A DNA stretch of 64,000 nt from Blepharisma stoltei ATCC 30299 (taxonomy: Eukaryota; Protista; Ciliophora), in NCBI GenBank assembly GCA_965603825.1, contig CBFDEM010000054.1, positions 248,001-312,000 on the forward strand. The letters run 5' to 3'. A program made the position numbers and the translations under genes. Shown one piece after another: positions 5,772 to 33,409 of the stretch (within the stretch, counting starts at the first letter, position 1; every line of letters starts with the position of its first letter). The notes under the pieces are model-generated. The model saw only the letters and a program-made list of their open reading frames with translations, had not been told where the DNA came from and did no database searches.

Positions 5772-7445
5772 ATGGTTAACCACCGTTGTTTTTTCTCCAA
5801 CTGTGAAAACGGTCCCGCATACATCTGCACATGCTGTTCTAGCGAAACTTATATGTGCAAGTTTCATATGGGATTTCATTGGACTAACACTGCAAGCCAT
5901 TCTTTTAAGCCAATTTTTTCTCTTCCAAACCCTGCCGCCAAAAGTTTAATCTTAAGCAAGCTGAACAAAGAAAAACTTAAAGTAGACAAACTAAAATCAA
6001 AAGTACTAAAAAAGTTTACCTTTGGATACTCATGTTTGTACAATTTAATGACTAATATTTTCAATGTCATCAATAAAGATGCCAAAGAAGTTCACGAGTC
6101 AATTAACAAAATTAATAGCACTACAGAGATTTCAAAGTATGAGACAAATAAACTACTTAAATCATTATTATTGAGTGCAGAAAACGCTGGTAAAGTTACT
6201 GATCTTCCAAAATTTAAGGCTAACCCAAACATAGAGGCTGCCTGTTCAATTATGCTGAACATTTCGAAAATCCTTGAACAATTGTCAAAAAAATTGCTAG
6301 ACCCTGATGCAGGTGACATTATACAAGAATTTCAAGACGCGCTAAATGGATTTGAAACCAATGTTTTTTCAAAGGAGGAAGAAGCTTTAATGATTCAGCA
6401 ATTGCATGCAAGACTCGAAAAGCTTTTAAGCTATGAAGAAATGATAAAAAAAGCAAAAGAAAACTATTTAGCAAATTTTGAATTGCCAGTAAATCTGCAG
6501 AATCTAAAATTTTTAATTAAACAATGTGGGCCAGACATTAATAAAGAAAACTATAAAGCATTGATCGAGGTTAACAGTGAAGCAAAGGAGCTTTATGAGC
6601 TTCTAGAAAAAAGCTATGAAACCCTAACACAAGAACTAGCAGCAATGACCGACCAGCTGGCATTCGATAGCGGCTATCTGTATAGTATTAAGAGAGACAA
6701 AACTATTCAGCAGAATATAATGCTGAAATATAGCATTGAAAACAAAGCTTTTGAACGAAAAAATCTTGATAACGAGCTTTTAGACAAAGGAACTGCCATA
6801 ATTCAACTCCCAAATAGTGAACTTTTTTGCTATGGAAATTATTCATGCACTGGATATTCATGCATCATCAATCTCAAAACACTAGAAATCAAAGAACTCC
6901 CTGAAGGATATCCATGCAGCTCAGCAGGGATCGCTTATTACAACAAATGCGTATATGCCTTTGGAGGCTGCTCTCAGAAGAAAAGCTGGTCATCTCAAGC
7001 ATGCAAGTTCGAATTGACTGGATATAAATGGAATAAGCTGCCTACCCTGGCTGTATCTTACAGCTGCAATTGCTCATGTGCTGTTTTTGAAAATAATATT
7101 TTATTATGCAGCGAAGGGAGAACTGACATCGTAAAGTATGAAATTGATAGAAATTCTTATACAATTGTTGCTAATATAAGCTCATTGAGTAAAGGAAAAA
7201 AACTGCTGTTCGCTGCGGATTCAAGGGTTTTTCTGCTGGAAAGTAAAGGGAATATTTTTGAAAGTAAAGATGGAAATAACTGAAAGCAGATTGAAAGCAG
7301 TGCCTTTGGGAACCACAACTGCTCTTTTAGTGTCTACAACCATAAATTTCAGTCGATTTTTCTGTGCTTGAATAGCAGACAAGTGCATTGCTATGAATTC
7401 AACTTGCATAAAAAACATTTAGTAAAATTAACTTCAACTTATTAA
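5772..7445 (+). CDS. B-box-like Zn finger / coiled-coil / Kelch-like propeller protein
   Basis: N-terminal C-x4-C...CxC...CxxHxxxH, helical middle, Kelch motifs (LFCYG, VYAFGG, W). Reads through TGA 7281 to TAA 7443-7445. Confidence 0.82.
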
Positions 7446-7521
7446 CTATAAAATAAATTTTTATCAATTTTAATCTAAAAAGCTTATTATTAATTTGATT
7501 TTTTATATATTATGGCATTCT

Positions 7522-9147
7522 TTATTCAGTTAAAACTCCCTCTTGGACCTTTTTCCAATCTTTATCCATAAGCTTCTCGAAGTTTATCATATGACTTAGA
7601 AGCTTTCCACTTCTCCTAATTTTCCCATCAGTTACATAAGGGTTACAATTATGTTGAAAATCAGCGTATTTAAGTCCTGATTCATACGCCCTCATTGTAT
7701 GCAGATAAGTATTATGCAGCTGCCTTGGTGTTATTTTTCTAAAACTCTGATAAACAGCTCAAAACAGCTCTTCTTCGTCAAAAAGCTGCACCTTCCTCAA
7801 ATTGTGCTTAAAAATGGAAAAAACAAACTCAATTGGCTGCAGCTGTGGCGTCATTGGTGCATTGCACATGACCGTAATATCTTGGCTCTCCAAAAAATCC
7901 TTCACAACTTTATGCTTGTGGGCTCCAGCATTATCCATCAGAACAAAAAATCTTTCTTTATAATTTGCTGGGTCCATTTCCCTTAATTTTTCAAATAAAC
8001 AATACAAAAAGTGCTTATAACTGTGCTTTTCGATTCTTACATATCTAATCATATAGCCAATTACTTTATCTTTAGAGATTGCAGCAATAATATGCAAAGG
8101 CCGCCCTTTTTTCTGGGCAACTTGCGTAGCTCTTATTCCGATTTTGCTTCAGCCATATACTTGATTGTCACCTCTTGTGACTTGAGTTTCATCAACACTG
8201 ATCAGCTCTTTTCCTGAATGCAGAAAATAAATGAGTTGCTGGGCTACCCTACATCTTGCGTTTTTGTGAGGAATATTATCAGCTTCTGGGACTACAGATC
8301 TTAGCCTTTTCATTGAGTAGCCGTTTTCTTTTAAAACTTCTCTGATGTCGTCAGTTTTTGCTTTAATTCCGAAATGGTTGCATAATATATGTTTCCTCTC
8401 TTTTAGAGATAATCCTATATTATTAGGATCTTCTGTAAGATCACATAAAAATTTGCATTGCTCCTCAGTAAGTCTATGAGACTTTTTAGGCTTGAAATCC
8501 ATTGTTATTGCTTTTTCACCATTTAAGTTATAAAATTCTATAAATTCATCTATCAGACGAACAGAAATGCGCCCGTAAAGATTTTTGCATATATCACGGC
8601 TTTTTTTGTCTTTTAAATATTGCTTGATAATTTTAATGCGGCAATTTTTACTAATTATTGAAGAGTTGCTACCTCTTTTAGTCTGACGATCATTGATATT
8701 TGTGGTTTGGTATTTTCCAAGGAATTTAATAAATTCTTCTCTAAATGAGCTTTCGTTTATGGTTTTTAACGCATGGCCAAGAGTTACTTTACTTTTCATT
8801 AATTGGGATAGCTCTTCTTTGGATAGCTCATATTCTGGGCCTGATAATGCAAATTTGTCAACAATTTCTCTCGCAAGTTTTGTGCCTTCTTCAATTTCTT
8901 GGGTAGTTAGAGGATCTTCTATGTGCTCACTGGATTTTTTGGCTGTGAAATCAATGATACTTTGGTAGTGGTGGCGAGATGGAAGGGAAAAATTTTCAGC
9001 TTCAGAGGGCTCATATTTTTTAGGTTTTGAGATAAGACAAATTTTTTCTTTGGAGTATTCAATGGTAGGGTCAATGAATTTGCTGATTTCTGTTGTGTAA
9101 TCGTTTGGGCATTGAGCTTTTTTACGCCCAGGCTTTTTCTTTACCAT
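7522..9147 (-). CDS. IS630/Tc1-mariner superfamily (DDE_3-like) transposase, intact DD34E triad, 541 aa
   Basis: ORFs 8149-9147 and 7759-8097 are one frame through TGA=Trp (YGW motif). SVDET (D at 8191), LMDNAGAH (D at 7933) and PQLQPIE (E at 7828) give 34 residues between the second D and E. HTH-like region upstream; TAA at 7522-7524. Confidence 0.9.
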
Positions 9148-9814
9148 AATAATTAAAGCCCCCAGGTCTTTGCCAAATCAAATTGATTTTAAAGTTCATA
9201 AATTCGAACCTAATCTATGCTGCTTTTATTAATAATTAGTCAAGTCTATTAATTCGAACGATTGAATTATAAAAAATTGATTGTCTAAGCCATAAGGTTT
9301 CTAATTATTTTCTTCTAATTTTTAATTTAAATTAAATAATATTTTGTTTCCTATTCACTTTCTACATAATCTAATAGTTTTCAAATAATTTTAATTGCAG
9401 GCTAAATTATTAAAAAATTTTCCTTCTTTATATGGAGTTCAATATTGATTGGAGGATGAGTGTATTAAGCTATTTTTGCTATATTTTTGAAGAAATTTAC
9501 TATTCTCTGTCCCTGGAAAAGCTATTAGTTTATTTAAAGTTTTGAGCTTTCGAAAAGAAAAAAAGATATCAGAATGAAATTCTGAGGGCATAAATAATAA
9601 GCAATCTATTGTTGACTCTAATAGCAAATTAGATTCACCTAAATAGTTTCAGATGGCTCTCTTAAATTTAATTACGGAAGAATTGGATAATCATTTTCTA
9701 GTCCCAAATAATTATAATCACTATTTAAAGTAGTGTTTTTATTTCTAAAAAGAGAATTTTAACAAGTAATCCAGCCTTGGGATAAATTAAACTCTTATAA
9801 TTAAATTTTTAAAC

Positions 9815-11104
9815 TTATTTATGAGTTATAACCTTGCTTAATGTCAAGCTATTGAAGTTAAATCTGAAAAAATTGCAAGCTTCATCTAAGAAATATGCAG
9901 AATCCTCATAAGTTGCATAATATGTTAATGGAGCTCTACTTATCTGATCTGTAAATTTTTGTATTGCAATTCAGTTACTCAAGCATTTTGGATTATTTTC
10001 ATATATATTTCCAGAAGATTCGATAAGAAAACTTCTGTTCGAAGAGTTGCATAATATTTTCCAGGTACTTGCAGCAAAGGAAGCCAACTCAAAGTATGAG
10101 TCGGATTCAATATCATATCTATAGAGTTTGGCGCTCTGGTATCCAACTAATAATATCCCTTCATTGGTGACAATATTTGAGACAAACGATAAATCCTCTT
10201 TTAAATCGCTTAGAGCTGACCAATTGTTGTTTTGCAAATTGTATTTAATAGCTTTATTAAAAGGTAAGCCAGTGGAATCTCATCCTCCAAAAAGATATAT
10301 GGAATCTTCGTATAGTGCAGGGCTCATATTTCCATATGGAGGTCCAGATTCAAGTTTTTCAATTGAATAGTCAGAGTGTAAGATAAATGCAGTTCCTTTC
10401 CCTGGGTGATTCCCATAGCAAAATAATCCTCTACCGGGGACTCGGCACATTGATATTCCTGCACTGTATACATTATCTTCCACAGGTAGTAGCTTTTCCG
10501 TCAAAGTGAAGCTTTGAAGATCAATAATGGAAAGAATTTTTGTTTGACTTTTGAAAAAGACAATTTCTTTTGAATCCCACTTACTGATCACCCTGATCCC
10601 CAAGTTTAGATCGCATTTAGCTGCTAATACATCTTCTACTGTAAAATTCAAATGTTTAGCGCTGTAAGTGAAGCTCTTCAAATTTCGCAAGGCTTTATCA
10701 ACTGGCAAACTCAGCAATTCTTCATAGGGATCTGGATTACATTTTGAAATTAATTCAATACTCTCTAACTTTTCTGAAATCATTTTTTGATTTGAGCTGA
10801 CTTCTTCTATTACTTTTAATGCTTTACTTAATAAATTTTGGAGAATTTGGATTTTATTTGTCACTTTTTCAATTAATTCGATCTTGAAGTTTGTTAATTC
10901 TGCAGATGATCTTTTAAGCTCATTGATTAGACCGATTTTAGTACTAGAAACAGGCTCTTTGTATAAAGTGCTTGGCTGATGAGTATGAGTTGAATCGAGA
11001 TCAATATGCTCAATAAAATGTTTAGCACATGAAAATGCCACTGGATTTACGCATTTGCAAAAAACTTTGACTTCATTCTGGCAGCATGGTCTCCAGCATT
11101 TCAT
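9815..11104 (-). CDS. Zn finger / coiled-coil / Kelch-like protein, copy 1 (429 aa)
   Basis: MKCWRPCC...CKC...CAKHFIEH; LFCYG, IYLFGGW(TGA); one frame through TGA 10280 and 9971 to TAA 9815-9817. Confidence 0.85.
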
Positions 11105-30181: not shown

Positions 30182-33100
30182 TTAATAAAGTTGACTTGGC
30201 CGTTTTTTCTTTGGTTTAAAGTACCAAATGAGGCTGATAATAGTAATGGAAGAAAAGCAAAACATGATAACATACTCAAAAACTTGAAGCGTGCCTACCT
30301 GAGAATTGTCTTTCTCAACTATGTTGTTCACAACTATATTTCTTCACATTTCATTTGCATTTTTGCTACCTTGAATAGGGTTTACTTTAATATTTGTTCC
30401 TTGGGAATTATTTAATTTATTTTTTATAACCTCAACGATATCTGGATTTCAATTCAGGTCGTTTTCTTCCTTTCGAGAATTTTTACTGGTGTTTAAATTT
30501 ATTTCAATTTTTTCTTTAATCCCAATTTCTTCAGAAATTTTTTGGATAGTTCTATTTAACTCGCTTTCAGATCTTCCTTCATTTTGCTGCATAATTTCGG
30601 CACGAATTTTTTCCATGGACACAATTTCATTTTCTTCTTCATCAAAATTGTCGTCTGTTGAGTTATCATTAGTTATTATTTGGCTTTCTTCTGCTTTTCT
30701 TACTTGAAATGCTGAAAATTCTCAGGGCTTAAGTACTATGTCTCCTTTTCAAATATCTTTGCTTTTATTTTCAAATTCAAAAGTACTTCCTGATCTTGGC
30801 ATCTCTGCAAAATCTATCTCAGTCCCACTTTTATTTCAGACATTTTGAGCTAATAGATTACTATATCCGCCTAACAATTTCCTCCTTCCAAGCTTATAAT
30901 TATTAAAAGAAATTCCTTGAAAAGCATCCTTTAAATTTCAAAGCCTGAAAATTAATTCACCTTTTTTAATTACAGAACTTGACAGATAGACATCAGGATT
31001 ATTGAAGCCAAACAGATAATAAGTTAAATAAGTCCAGTTACCTGTAAATTGATGAGCATTATTTATATCATGGCCAAGTTTAAAAGTTTCATTGTTTTCT
31101 ATCCATCACGCATACGCATCAGTTTTAGCCTCAATATATAATTTTTTAAAATTACAGTGCTTAAGTTCTCCAAGCTCAATTTCGAAATGATAATCCACAA
31201 AGGTTCTGTCATCAACACCTTCCAAAAGCCCAAAATCATCGTCTTGATCTAAATTTCTGTGCATTAAAATTTCGAATGAATTTTCATTAGCTATAGCTAC
31301 ACCTAATGAAAATTTTGGAATAATTTTTAGATACTCATACCCTATATTGACTGCAAAACCGCCTGACACTGGATACATATTTAATCCTTTTTCTCCTGGG
31401 CCATTAACCGGGAAATATTTTCTTGATCTCAAATCTCCAGAGTTTGAAGTTAGCAGCCATTCATTGCCTGAAATATTTTGACTTGTGAATCTAAATAGAA
31501 TTTCTTCATTTGTATTAGAAAATAAACCGCATTTTCATATGAATTTTTTTTCTCCATATAGAATGATTTTTTGGTGATAAAATTTATGGTTTTCTTGCAT
31601 TTGAACCCTACTTCATACCACTTCGGCGATTTGAACGATTTTTCCATTCCAAATTTTTATTTTTCTCAATGACAGATCATTTAATTTTTTACCGCTATCA
31701 GCTGGTTGAAAAATATAAGCTCCGCCATCGTTTCCATTATAATTTCATATTTCTTGATTCAATTGATATTTAGGTTTTCCATATGTAGAGATATTGCTAA
31801 TCATTCCAAAATCATCAAATTCAATTCGATATACAGAATCCTGTAAAATTGAGTTATTATTTAAAGTTGATTCACTTGAGCAAAACTCACAGTGGAAGGA
31901 GTACTCTGTAATGAATAAGGTTGTAAATGATAGAGCTGGTAAAGTTACTTTGAAGTAAATTGTATATTTTTTAGAGCTCCCTGAATCATTTTCAATACTT
32001 TGTGAAGGAATATAAGTACTAATTCAACTCTGAATTTCAACGTAAGGACTGTCTGATTCTATGTTTAGCAGGCTTGGTTTGTTCCAATTTAATGGGTTAT
32101 ATGCAATGATCACTCTGTATGGAAGCATTAGTTCATAGTTATATGAGGTGTTTGTAAAAACACTGCTTATAACTTCATTAATTGCATATGTAGCTTTTGC
32201 TTGCTCATCTTCAAGTTTTTCCATAAAATCCATCGCAACGTGTGGCTTGCACGTTCCAGATATAGAATCATGATGCAATGCTAAGCTAGCCTGATGACCT
32301 AAATATTGCTCATTTTTTATTAATGATTTTGCAATTTCAGCAGCTCTAACTAGTTGATGAGTAAACGAAATTGCTTGCTTTAAAGCCGGTCTTGTAGAAT
32401 AATACCCAGTTCAATACGCAGGCTGATTAAAACGCCTATACATTTTATATGGGAAAAAATCTTTGTCATATGTCGAAAATTTTGCGTTGGATTGTTTTAC
32501 GGCGCTGAAATACTCACTAGGAGTTGCGATTTTGATAGAAAAATCAGGATAATTTTGGGAATTAATATAATCGCGAAGCATTTCAATTCGTCTATAGAAT
32601 AGTCTTCCTTCATCAATAGATTTATATCAAAAATCGCCTCCATATAAAATCATGAGATTAGAAGTTTTATAAGCTGCTGCTCTTTCTTTAGTCAGATTGT
32701 AAAGCTTTTCAGCACTAAATAGAATTTACCATCATATTATGCTTCCTTTTCCAGTAATCAAGCAATTTTCAAGAGAATTTCCTGGATCAATTATATCTGG
32801 AGGAGTATAATGATCATAAAGGAGGTGTGTGAAAATCGATTCCTCGTCACCTAAGTTAACTCCCTTTCACATAAACTCTAAATCTCCTTCGTTTATTAAT
32901 TGTGTTTTAAAATCAAGGTTTATTCGATTGATAACAAGATACTCAAATCCAAACTTTGAAAATAAACTTGGAGTTAGTGCAGAATGACCAAATGGGTCAA
33001 TTTGCCAACCTACCTTGACTTTATCAATTCCAAACTCGTCTTTTAAGTATTGATGCCCATGCTCAATTTGCCTTATAACCATCTCAATATCAGTAGATGC

Positions 33101-33409
33101 TTCATCATTTTGTACATATCCTGCACCTACAAATTCGATTTGTCCTTTCTTCACGAAATCTTTAAACCTCACTTTTGCATCTTCAGATTGATCGGAAAAC
33201 CATCTTTGTAAAAACGAAATCTCAGATCAAACGAATTTTCTCTTTTCATCTTCTTCCAGCAAAGTAATAATACCGCTCAGAATAGATTTGACTTGATTTT
33301 CATAGTACCAATCAAAAGTCTCAATCCATCCAGGATCACAATGAGAGTGCGGGACTATAAAAAGCTCATAACCTTTGCAGAAGTATAAAAGAGACAGTAA
33401 GCCCCACAT
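30182..33409 (-). CDS. GH38 alpha-mannosidase, paralog B (~1070 aa, C-terminal TM anchor)
   Basis: Same catalytic motifs; intron 32715-32729; extra acidic stalk, then YVIMFCFSSITIISLIWYF-KPKKKRPSQLY-TAA. Confidence 0.9.
32715..32729 (-). other. 15-nt intron gtaaattctatttag
   Basis: GT-AG, A at position 10, homologous to the paralog A intron. Confidence 0.88.

What the first reader, a model, noticed from the sequence alone, without database searches (positions are those of the whole stretch)
7522..9147. Intact DD34E transposase without visible TIRs, embedded as an ordinary gene: candidate domesticated ciliate genome-editing enzyme
Seen: a 541-aa uninterrupted frame in the host code (two TGA=Trp), a complete D-D34-E triad, an HTH-like region and a ~150-aa N-terminal extension starting with a basic KKKPGRKK. 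Only 76 bp separate it from the convergent neighbour's stop, and I find no terminal inverted repeats. Known: ciliates purge transposons from the somatic genome, yet use transposases for programmed DNA elimination (domesticated PiggyMac/Tpb2, germline TBE transposases). Inference: a soma-retained, catalytically intact IS630/Tc1-type gene is a candidate non-PiggyBac developmental nuclease.
Basis: partly seen in the sequence, partly recalled or inferred. Interest (0 to 1): 0.78.

Follow-up and report, generated by a model that had tools for sequence, protein, structure and literature searches.

The report
Ancient domesticated transposase of heterotrich ciliates
This is an intact, transcribed transposase gene that has lost its transposon ends and is kept by natural selection as an ordinary ciliate gene; it likely cuts DNA while the new somatic nucleus is built, and it likely belongs to a six-gene Blepharisma family already published in 2023 with this same hypothesis.

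Summary
In detail: a 541-aa frame (two TGA=Trp), a D319-D405-E440 triad with 34-residue spacing, Pfam DDE_3, a Mos1-like fold, and no terminal inverted repeats above chance. The idea is already in print. Singh et al. 2023 describe six somatic, repeat-less DDE_3 genes in Blepharisma stoltei, five with a full triad, all up-regulated during new-macronucleus development and possibly excising some IESs. This gene is very likely one of them (gene id not confirmed). What I add: (1) purifying selection, with 17 synonymous to 5 non-synonymous allele differences, and dN/dS 0.056 between syntenic family members in another heterotrich lineage; (2) a single clade (SH-aLRT 97, quick tree) of 16 full-length proteins at 27-81% identity in the pairs tabulated, across three genetic codes, triad kept, sitting 6-10 bp from neighbouring host genes in four loci; (3) a family-specific N-terminal extension of about 150 aa with no fold match. 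So domestication is old and real. A DNA-cutting role in development is inferred, not shown; published evidence favours PiggyMac as the main excisase.

The parts
7522..9147 (-). Intronless ORF, 541 aa, DD34E transposase-derived protein (P0001)
   Evidence: RNA-like contigs cover 7468-9047 without gaps inside the ORF
9100..9147 (-). Basic N-terminus (residues 1-16, 6 K/R), likely nuclear localisation signal (inferred)
   Evidence: 6-8 K/R in the first 16 residues of P0001-P0005, 1-6 in the other seven members checked
8683..9099 (-). Family-specific N-terminal extension (residues about 17-155), mostly helical, no fold match
   Evidence: An HMM of residues 1-150 hits only family members at E<=1.5e-6 among 175 proteins; pLDDT 78-98 per 10-residue block over residues 21-140 in the full model; pTM 0.31 alone; best Z 4.2
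8482..8670 (-). First helix-turn-helix bundle (residues about 160-222); the least conserved folded part of the family
   Evidence: Tc3 1tc3 Z 6.7; 9-24% identity to six distant members
8299..8481 (-). Second (winged) helix-turn-helix (residues about 223-283)
   Evidence: HTH_33 in family members; 23-34% identity to six distant members
8212..8298 (-). Linker (residues 284-312) with VVPEAD at the position of the mariner WVPHEL motif
   Evidence: profile-to-Mos1 alignment; 41-52% identity to six distant members; the motif name WVPHEL is recalled
7651..8211 (-). RNase H-like DDE catalytic domain (residues about 313-499); triad codons D319 8191-8193, D405 7933-7935, E440 7828-7830
   Evidence: SETMAR 3k9j and Mos1 4mdb Z 18.0, rmsd 2.3, 191 aligned
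7446..7521 (.). 76-bp AT-rich gap to the convergent kelch-like gene; no TIR
9148..9814 (.). 667-bp upstream intergenic region; no TIR partner above chance
5772..7445 (+). Neighbouring host gene, 557 aa, weak kelch/beta-propeller match
9815..11104 (-). Neighbouring host gene, 429 aa, kelch repeats

Best explanation
This is a transposase gene without transposon ends that is transcribed and under purifying selection as a host gene, and its protein is predicted to be a Mos1-like DDE nuclease that likely acts as an accessory DNA-cutting enzyme while the new somatic nucleus develops. Shown here: intact frame and triad, no TIRs, transcription, purifying selection, and one clade with TIR-less syntenic relatives in another heterotrich lineage. 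From the literature, if the gene is one of the six published ones: up-regulation at new-macronucleus formation. Inferred: nuclear import through the basic N-terminus; a dimer with two-metal catalysis as in Tc1/mariner enzymes; loose sequence recognition, since the first HTH is the least conserved folded part while linker and catalytic core are kept; targeting helped by the family-specific N-terminal extension; and substrates that tolerate imprecise cuts (intergenic, non-TA or transposon-derived IESs, or the breaks that make alternative telomere-addition sites), with PiggyMac doing the bulk of precise excision. The confidence is for the whole statement; for domestication alone I put about 0.95.
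For: Triad and fold. No TIRs. No second copy in the window; the closest named same-species proteins are 41-43% identical. Transcription: 4 of 4 laid runs have contigs over the ORF, and the same runs skip three 15-nt GT-AG introns of other window genes, so they behave as RNA. Selection: 17 synonymous to 5 non-synonymous among 22 coding differences, pN/pS 0.07-0.12, binomial p 1e-8 to 5e-6. L003/L004 are syntenic (IFT56 upstream, same gene downstream), dN/dS 0.056 at dS 1.18; DDE part 0.03, N-terminal extension 0.062; the neighbour IFT56 has dS 1.53, so divergence is comparable, as expected for vertical descent. D-34-E spacing in 12 of 12 full-length members checked by script and D319, D405, E440 invariant in 22 of 22 aligned. 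Loci L001, L003, L004, L005 end 9, 8, 6 and 10 bp before the next host gene. Literature: six B. stoltei MAC DDE_3 genes up-regulated in MAC development; Loxodes magnus, which shows no canonical IESs, has no annotated DDE_3; the TBE transposase cleaves DNA promiscuously and localises to the developing nucleus (abstract).
Against: No experiment on this family was found. I could not see the stage of the RNA runs, so developmental timing rests on the paper and on the inferred identity with its six genes. Seah et al. read the 10-bp periodicity of short IESs as a sign of a single primary excisase; Singh et al. note that classical cut-and-paste enzymes leave footprints, a problem for intragenic IESs. 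Purifying selection also covers the HTH region (dN/dS 0.066), so 'loose recognition' is not shown. Loxodes lacks PiggyBac homologs as well, so its lack of DDE_3 does not single out this family. Keeping a triad shows constraint, not cleavage. The dN/dS of 0.056 is for another subfamily (32% identical to P0001), not for this gene's own orthologs.
Confidence: 0.5

Rival explanations
1. Domesticated DNA-binding or scaffold protein. It binds transposon ends or IES chromatin, or partners an excisase, and restrains or assists other transposases; cleavage is weak or irrelevant.
For: Catalytically incomplete PiggyMac-like proteins are functional in Paramecium. One of the six B. stoltei DDE_3 genes lacks the full triad. 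HTH and N-terminal regions are under purifying selection too.
Against: All three acidic residues are invariant in 22 of 22 aligned full-length or near full-length members, down to 28% identity, and the DDE domain is the most constrained part (dN/dS 0.03).
Confidence: 0.2
2. Active nuclease with a sexual-phase job other than DNA elimination, such as end processing in repair (as proposed for SETMAR/Metnase, recalled), meiosis, or degradation of the old macronucleus.
For: The closest fold includes the domesticated SETMAR transposase domain (Z 18.0). The time course up-regulates many repair genes at the same stage.
Against: Published peak expression is at new-MAC development. Fold likeness to SETMAR ties with Mos1 and shows no function.
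Confidence: 0.18
3. It is the main IES excisase of heterotrichs, in place of or equal to PiggyMac.
For: Five of six paralogs have full triads against one of eight PiggyBac homologs. About three-quarters of IESs are TA-bound, and TA is the Tc1/IS630 target (established knowledge). The family is old and conserved.
Against: Periodic IES lengths like Paramecium's, the need for seamless excision, and a developmentally expressed BPgm with a full triad.
Confidence: 0.07
4. It is part of an active or recently active autonomous transposon that escaped elimination.
For: DD34E spacing is shared with the germline element BstTc1. A closer paralog of about 80% nucleotide identity in the catalytic region is expressed in the same runs.
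Against: No TIRs. No near-identical copies. Relatives are 6-10 bp from host genes and syntenic at dS above 1. The closer paralog differs mostly at silent sites (12 of 18 listed differences).
Confidence: 0.03

Closest known systems
The six MAC-encoded DDE_3 (IS630-like) domesticated transposases of Blepharisma stoltei (Singh et al. 2023, PMC9942806; bioRxiv 10.1101/2021.12.14.471607)
   Same: Same code (UGA=Trp), tiny introns in neighbouring genes, DDE_3 domain, full triad, no terminal repeats, somatic gene-dense context. Three named B. stoltei DDE_3 proteins are its closest named relatives (41-43%). Very likely the same gene set.
   Different: The sections and passages I read give no dN/dS, synteny, cross-genus clade or N-terminal extension for these genes; their supplements could not be read. 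The gene id was not confirmed.
Mos1 / Sleeping Beauty / Tc3 (Tc1-mariner transposases) and SETMAR
   Same: Two HTH bundles, linker and RNase H-like core; Z 16.7-18.0; profile E 5e-16 to Mos1.
   Different: About 17% identity, DD34E rather than mariner DD34D, an extra N-terminal extension of about 150 aa, no TIRs.
Oxytricha TBE and Euplotes Tec transposases
   Same: DDE_3 domain; implicated (TBE) in developmental DNA cleavage.
   Different: Those sit in germline-limited, high-copy, TIR-bearing elements. Singh et al. place the Blepharisma genes nearer IS630 than TBE or Tec. I did not compare the sequences.
PiggyMac / Tpb2 / BPgm (domesticated PiggyBac excisases)
   Same: Soma-retained, transposon-free, triad-intact, developmental (works-like analogy).
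   Different: Different superfamily: DDD triad, DDE_Tnp_1_7 and a cysteine-rich domain, none of which is found here.
BstTc1 (B. stoltei germline Tc1-like element)
   Same: DDE_3, DD34E.
   Different: BstTc1 has a 38-bp TIR and lies in IESs; its TIR is not in this window. Protein sequences not compared.

Membership tests
IS630-Tc1-mariner transposase protein | DDE_3 catalytic domain above the Pfam cut-off | tested here: met
   57.2 bits against 28.6
IS630-Tc1-mariner transposase protein | D-D-34-E triad | tested here: met
IS630-Tc1-mariner transposase protein | Bipartite N-terminal HTH DNA-binding region | tested here: met
   model aligns to Mos1 over 164-499 (Z 17.8) and to Tc3 and SETMAR DNA-binding domains (Z 6.6-6.7); HTH_33 in relatives; no Pfam HTH hit for P0001 itself
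IS630-Tc1-mariner transposase protein | DNA cleavage or strand transfer activity | not testable with these tools
   needs biochemistry
Autonomous IS630/Tc1 transposon | Terminal inverted repeats round the gene | tested here: not met
   also none above shuffles in L001, L003, L004, L005
Autonomous IS630/Tc1 transposon | TA target-site duplication | tested here: inconclusive
   no element ends to anchor on; flanks are 75-87% AT
Autonomous IS630/Tc1 transposon | Many near-identical dispersed copies | tested here: not met
   one copy in the window; cluster of one at 90% identity; the whole genome and the germline were not available
Published B. stoltei MAC DDE_3 gene set (Singh 2023) | Host is B. 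stoltei somatic genome | tested here: inconclusive
   TGA=W genes, 15-nt introns, 26-38% GC per 2 kb, 1.1-Mb contig, closest named paralogs B. stoltei; the record's own name is withheld
Published B. stoltei MAC DDE_3 gene set (Singh 2023) | Listed among the six genes | not testable with these tools
   supplements unreadable; figures not held
Published B. stoltei MAC DDE_3 gene set (Singh 2023) | Up-regulated during new-MAC development | tested here: inconclusive
   transcribed in 4 of 4 laid runs, stage unknown, contigs cannot give levels
Domesticated transposase (host gene) | Purifying selection | tested here: met
   pN/pS 0.07-0.12 for this gene; dN/dS 0.056 for L003/L004
Domesticated transposase (host gene) | Orthologs at syntenic positions | tested here: inconclusive
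   met for relatives L003/L004; for this gene the likely ortholog P0002 (70%) has no DNA context here
PiggyMac/Tpb2 excisase | DDE_Tnp_1_7 domain, DDD triad, cysteine-rich C-terminal domain | tested here: not met
   one search lists no such family at E<=0.1; the third catalytic residue is E
TBE/Tec transposase | Germline-limited element with accessory ORFs and TIRs | tested here: not met
   neighbours are kelch-type host genes; no TIRs
IES excisase (function) | Knockdown causes IES retention; protein in the developing MAC | not testable with these tools
   needs experiment; none found

The most novel reading that the evidence does not exclude
Heterotrich ciliates domesticated an IS630-like transposase once, early in the class, added a new N-terminal domain, and have used it since as a second genome-editing nuclease beside PiggyMac: it removes the IESs that are not TA-bound or makes the scattered breaks that become alternative telomere-addition sites. 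It would be a soma-encoded IS630/Tc1-type editing enzyme, the domesticated counterpart of Oxytricha's germline TBE transposase.
Probability: 0.3. Interest if true: 0.72.

Novelty: already known. Interest (0 to 1): 0.33.

Why it matters
Which enzymes cut ciliate genomes outside Paramecium and Tetrahymena is open. The gene set and the hypothesis are published, so the finding itself is not new. The added evidence (selection, synteny of relatives, one old clade across three genetic codes, an unknown N-terminal domain) raises the family from 'apparently domesticated' to a conserved host function and makes it a well-founded knockdown target. About a quarter of Blepharisma IESs are not TA-bound, and I found no enzyme assigned to the 46,705 alternative telomere-addition sites in the passages I read.

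Tried and rejected
Whole-genome copy number: no genome is held for this window. TIR candidate I1: rejected as chance. Gene id and expression values: the supplements of both PNAS papers were too large to read and bioRxiv supplements are closed; they may hold the id, the heat map and a tree that anticipates part of my additions. RNA runs: no listed holder is on record as RNA; contig depth cannot rank genes, so I draw nothing from the deeper paralog contig; the lack of cover over 9048-9500 is not used. N-terminal extension: no usable ESM Atlas hit by features and best TM 0.43; Foldseek 0 matches at E<=0.001; VIA-align best Z 4.2. The model folded alone is poor (pTM 0.31), so this does not show a new fold. 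Complex prediction of the extension with the catalytic domain: no answer, score 0.01, alignment not used. Stentor: no member named Stentor appeared, but these are word-limited searches and the representative library has no names, so presence in Stentor is unknown. Names for the nearest outgroup proteins: none informative. The careful tree did not finish; the quick tree is quoted; it used the first 70 of 113 non-family hits of 300 aa or more plus P0008, 85 rows after trimming, and no named TBE, Tec, BstTc1 or IS630 reference. No telomeric repeats in L001-L006. dS between P0001 and L001 or L004 is saturated. Earlier scan findings: none.

Full report
Observation. The frame at window:7522-9147(-) is open for 541 codons with TGA read as Trp at W333 and W463. 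Other genes of the window use TGA the same way. Pfam gives DDE_3 at residues 315-458, E 2.2e-15. The triad is D319, D405, E440, with 34 residues between the last two. The gaps to the neighbours are 76 and 667 bp; both neighbours are kelch-type host genes, the left one by weak matches only. The longest inverted pair flanking the ORF does not beat shuffles: 58, 170 and 149 of 200 under three scorings, and 68 of 200 for exact repeats. The BstTc1 TIR is absent from the window, and tblastn finds no second copy there.

Host and prior art. TGA=Trp, 15-nt GT-AG introns, about one-third GC, a 1.1-Mb source contig and three closest named relatives labelled Blepharisma stoltei at 41-43% identity point to the B. 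stoltei somatic genome; this is inference, as the record's name is withheld. Singh et al. (PMC9942806: passages; bioRxiv 10.1101/2021.12.14.471607: passages and sections 9 and 12) report six MAC-encoded DDE_3 genes. All are up-regulated in MAC development, five have a full triad, none has terminal repeats, and they lie nearer IS630 than TBE or Tec, with 'a possibility' of acting in some IES excision. I count four such proteins in the database (P0001, P0003, P0004, P0006) plus a closer paralog seen only in RNA contigs, which would fit five, but I could not read the supplements and did not confirm the gene id.

Transcription and selection on this gene. Four runs of one study hold 70-74% of the gene's words; they are guessed, not recorded, to be RNA. 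They skip three 15-nt introns of other window genes, at 876, 1027 and 17470, so they behave as spliced RNA, and their contigs cover 7468-9047. Their stage is unknown. The main contigs differ from the window at 22 listed coding positions, which I read as alleles of another strain (no matching DNA run was laid). Seventeen are synonymous and 5 non-synonymous, none at the triad or making a stop; pN/pS is 0.07, or 0.12 with a strong transition bias; p 1e-8 to 5e-6. I left out one difference and two insertions in the 3' flank and the rows belonging to the paralog contig. By the per-contig totals at most 2 differences of the main contigs were not displayed. As a rough control, 9 of 12 displayed differences in three neighbouring host genes are synonymous (only a best-supported subset was shown). 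The closer paralog differs at 12 silent and 6 replacement sites among 18 listed in 7915-8004.

The family. A word-based search found six full-length relatives: P0002 at 70% (likely ortholog from an unnamed assembly), three B. stoltei paralogs, P0005 and P0007. A profile search of 1.84 billion representatives added five more full-length proteins at E<=1e-117, with a gap to ordinary DDE_3 proteins at E>=1e-38. One cluster includes an MMETSP transcript. The D-34-E spacing holds in 12 of 12 full-length members checked, and the three acidic residues are invariant in 22 of 22 aligned. Pairwise identities among those 12 run from 27 to 81%. In a quick maximum-likelihood tree of the HTH2-DDE region, 16 family rows form one side of a branch with SH-aLRT 97 among 85 rows; P0001 pairs with P0002, and P0003 with P0005 (midpoint root, careful search unfinished, no named references).

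Genomic context of relatives. A metagenome scan returned five full-length loci among 80 kept. L001, L003, L004 and L005 are gene-dense eukaryotic contigs readable in the standard code. In each the transposase stop lies 9, 8, 6 or 10 bp before the next gene's start, and where an upstream gene is present it ends 78-134 bp before. Neighbours include an RCC1 protein, an actin-family gene, IFT56, HMG-CoA synthase, PX and macro-domain genes. No inverted repeat beats shuffles in any of the four. L003 and L004 share both neighbours. Their transposases are 89% identical with dS 1.18 and dN/dS 0.056 (N-terminal part 0.062, HTH 0.066, DDE 0.030), against 0.013 at dS 1.53 for IFT56 and 0.198 for 157 codons of the downstream gene (Nei-Gojobori). 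The IFT56 of L004 has B. stoltei (76%) and Stentor coeruleus (74%) as best named hits, with the Tetrahymena, Ichthyophthirius and Paramecium records at 60-62%. So the host is likely a heterotrich about as far from Blepharisma as Stentor is, at 51-54% GC. L004 and L005 come from one metagenome and are paralogs (58% identical), each near a macro-domain gene and a large paralogous gene, which suggests an old segmental duplication. L002 needs TAA/TAG=Gln nine times and has one in-frame TGA, which would fit the ambiguous codes of Condylostoma or karyorelicts (the Condylostoma code is recalled; karyorelict code); its host and L001's were not determined. The family thus spans three genetic codes.

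Structure. With 73 aligned sequences AlphaFold gives mean pLDDT 86.8 and pTM 0.80. The core matches SETMAR and Mos1 catalytic domains (Z 18.0, rmsd 2.3, 191 residues) and Sleeping Beauty (Z 16.7); residues 164-499 match full Mos1; the HTH bundles match Tc3 and SETMAR DNA-binding domains at middling Z. Residues about 17-155 are family-specific: an HMM built from residues 1-150 of six members hits all other members with that region at E<=1.5e-6 and no non-member better than E 0.039 among 175 proteins. The region is confident in the full model and poor alone (pTM 0.31), which suggests that it folds against the rest of the protein; this is inference from model confidence only. Identity of six distant members to P0001 by region: extension 16-30%, HTH1 9-24%, HTH2 23-34%, linker 41-52%, DDE 42-50%. 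Alignment of HTH1 at such distances is uncertain.

Mechanism. Shown: a transposon-free, transcribed, selected gene with a conserved active site. From established knowledge of Tc1/mariner enzymes: dimer, two-metal cleavage, staggered cuts and footprints. From papers: developmental up-regulation of the family; promiscuous cleavage and developing-nucleus localisation of the DDE_3-type TBE enzyme (PMC12242761: abstract and passages); no DDE_3 and no PiggyBac homolog in the non-editing Loxodes magnus (PMC11441545: passages). Against a main role: periodic IES lengths and the need for seamless joints favour BPgm (PMC9942856: passages). About 30,212 IESs are TA-bound and 6,566 have other direct repeats, and 46,705 alternative telomere-addition sites were found. 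My best reading is an accessory nuclease for cuts that tolerate imprecision (0.5), then a non-catalytic helper (0.2), another sexual-phase nuclease role (0.18), main excisase (0.07), active transposon (0.03).

Verdict. Real and correctly described, but already published as a gene set with the same hypothesis. The selection, synteny, clade and N-terminal-extension results were not in the text I read or in my four literature searches (other papers seen as listings only; bioRxiv 10.1101/2022.05.02.489906 as passages). Unread supplements may contain part of them. Interest 0.33.

Noticed in passing
window:11539-12828 (-) and 9815-11104 (-): Tandem duplicate of the kelch gene, 95.3% identical over 1290 nt without gaps; the second copy has an in-frame TAG at codon 168, so it is a young pseudogene or a truncated copy.
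   Followed up: partly
RNA contigs laid on window:7604-8553 (records 9 and 19): An expressed paralog of about 80% nucleotide identity in the catalytic region, closer than any named B. stoltei paralog, was not returned by the protein searches. It may be one of the six published genes.
   Followed up: partly
RNA contigs laid on window:8279-8339 (records 6, 10, 16, 20): A 1.5-kb paralog transcript whose loose end, read by eye, matches P0004. Its contig depth is 264-443 against 23-35 for this gene, but contig depth cannot rank genes.
   Followed up: no
L002:3-1805 (+): A full-length family member in a host that reads TAA/TAG as Gln and probably TGA as an amino acid; the frame has no other stop up to the contig end. 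If the host were a karyorelict it would bear on the loss of editing in Loxodes.
   Followed up: partly
L004:5102-15822 and L005:7690-19084: Two paralogous blocks in one metagenome (transposase, macro-domain gene, large multi-domain gene): a likely old segmental or genome duplication with both transposase copies kept intact.
   Followed up: partly
window:27131-29968 (-) and 30182-33409 (-): Two tandem genes that look like alpha-mannosidases by their N-terminal motif (recalled, not scanned), each split into two ORFs, probably by tiny introns.
   Followed up: no
window:876, 1027, 17470 (15 nt) and 137 (19 nt): Tiny introns skipped in the RNA contigs; the three 15-nt ones have GT-AG ends.
   Followed up: yes
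window:3467-3912: A joint skipping 444 nt inside the 736-aa ORF in three runs, short side 35 nt; probably another paralog or an assembly join.
   Followed up: no
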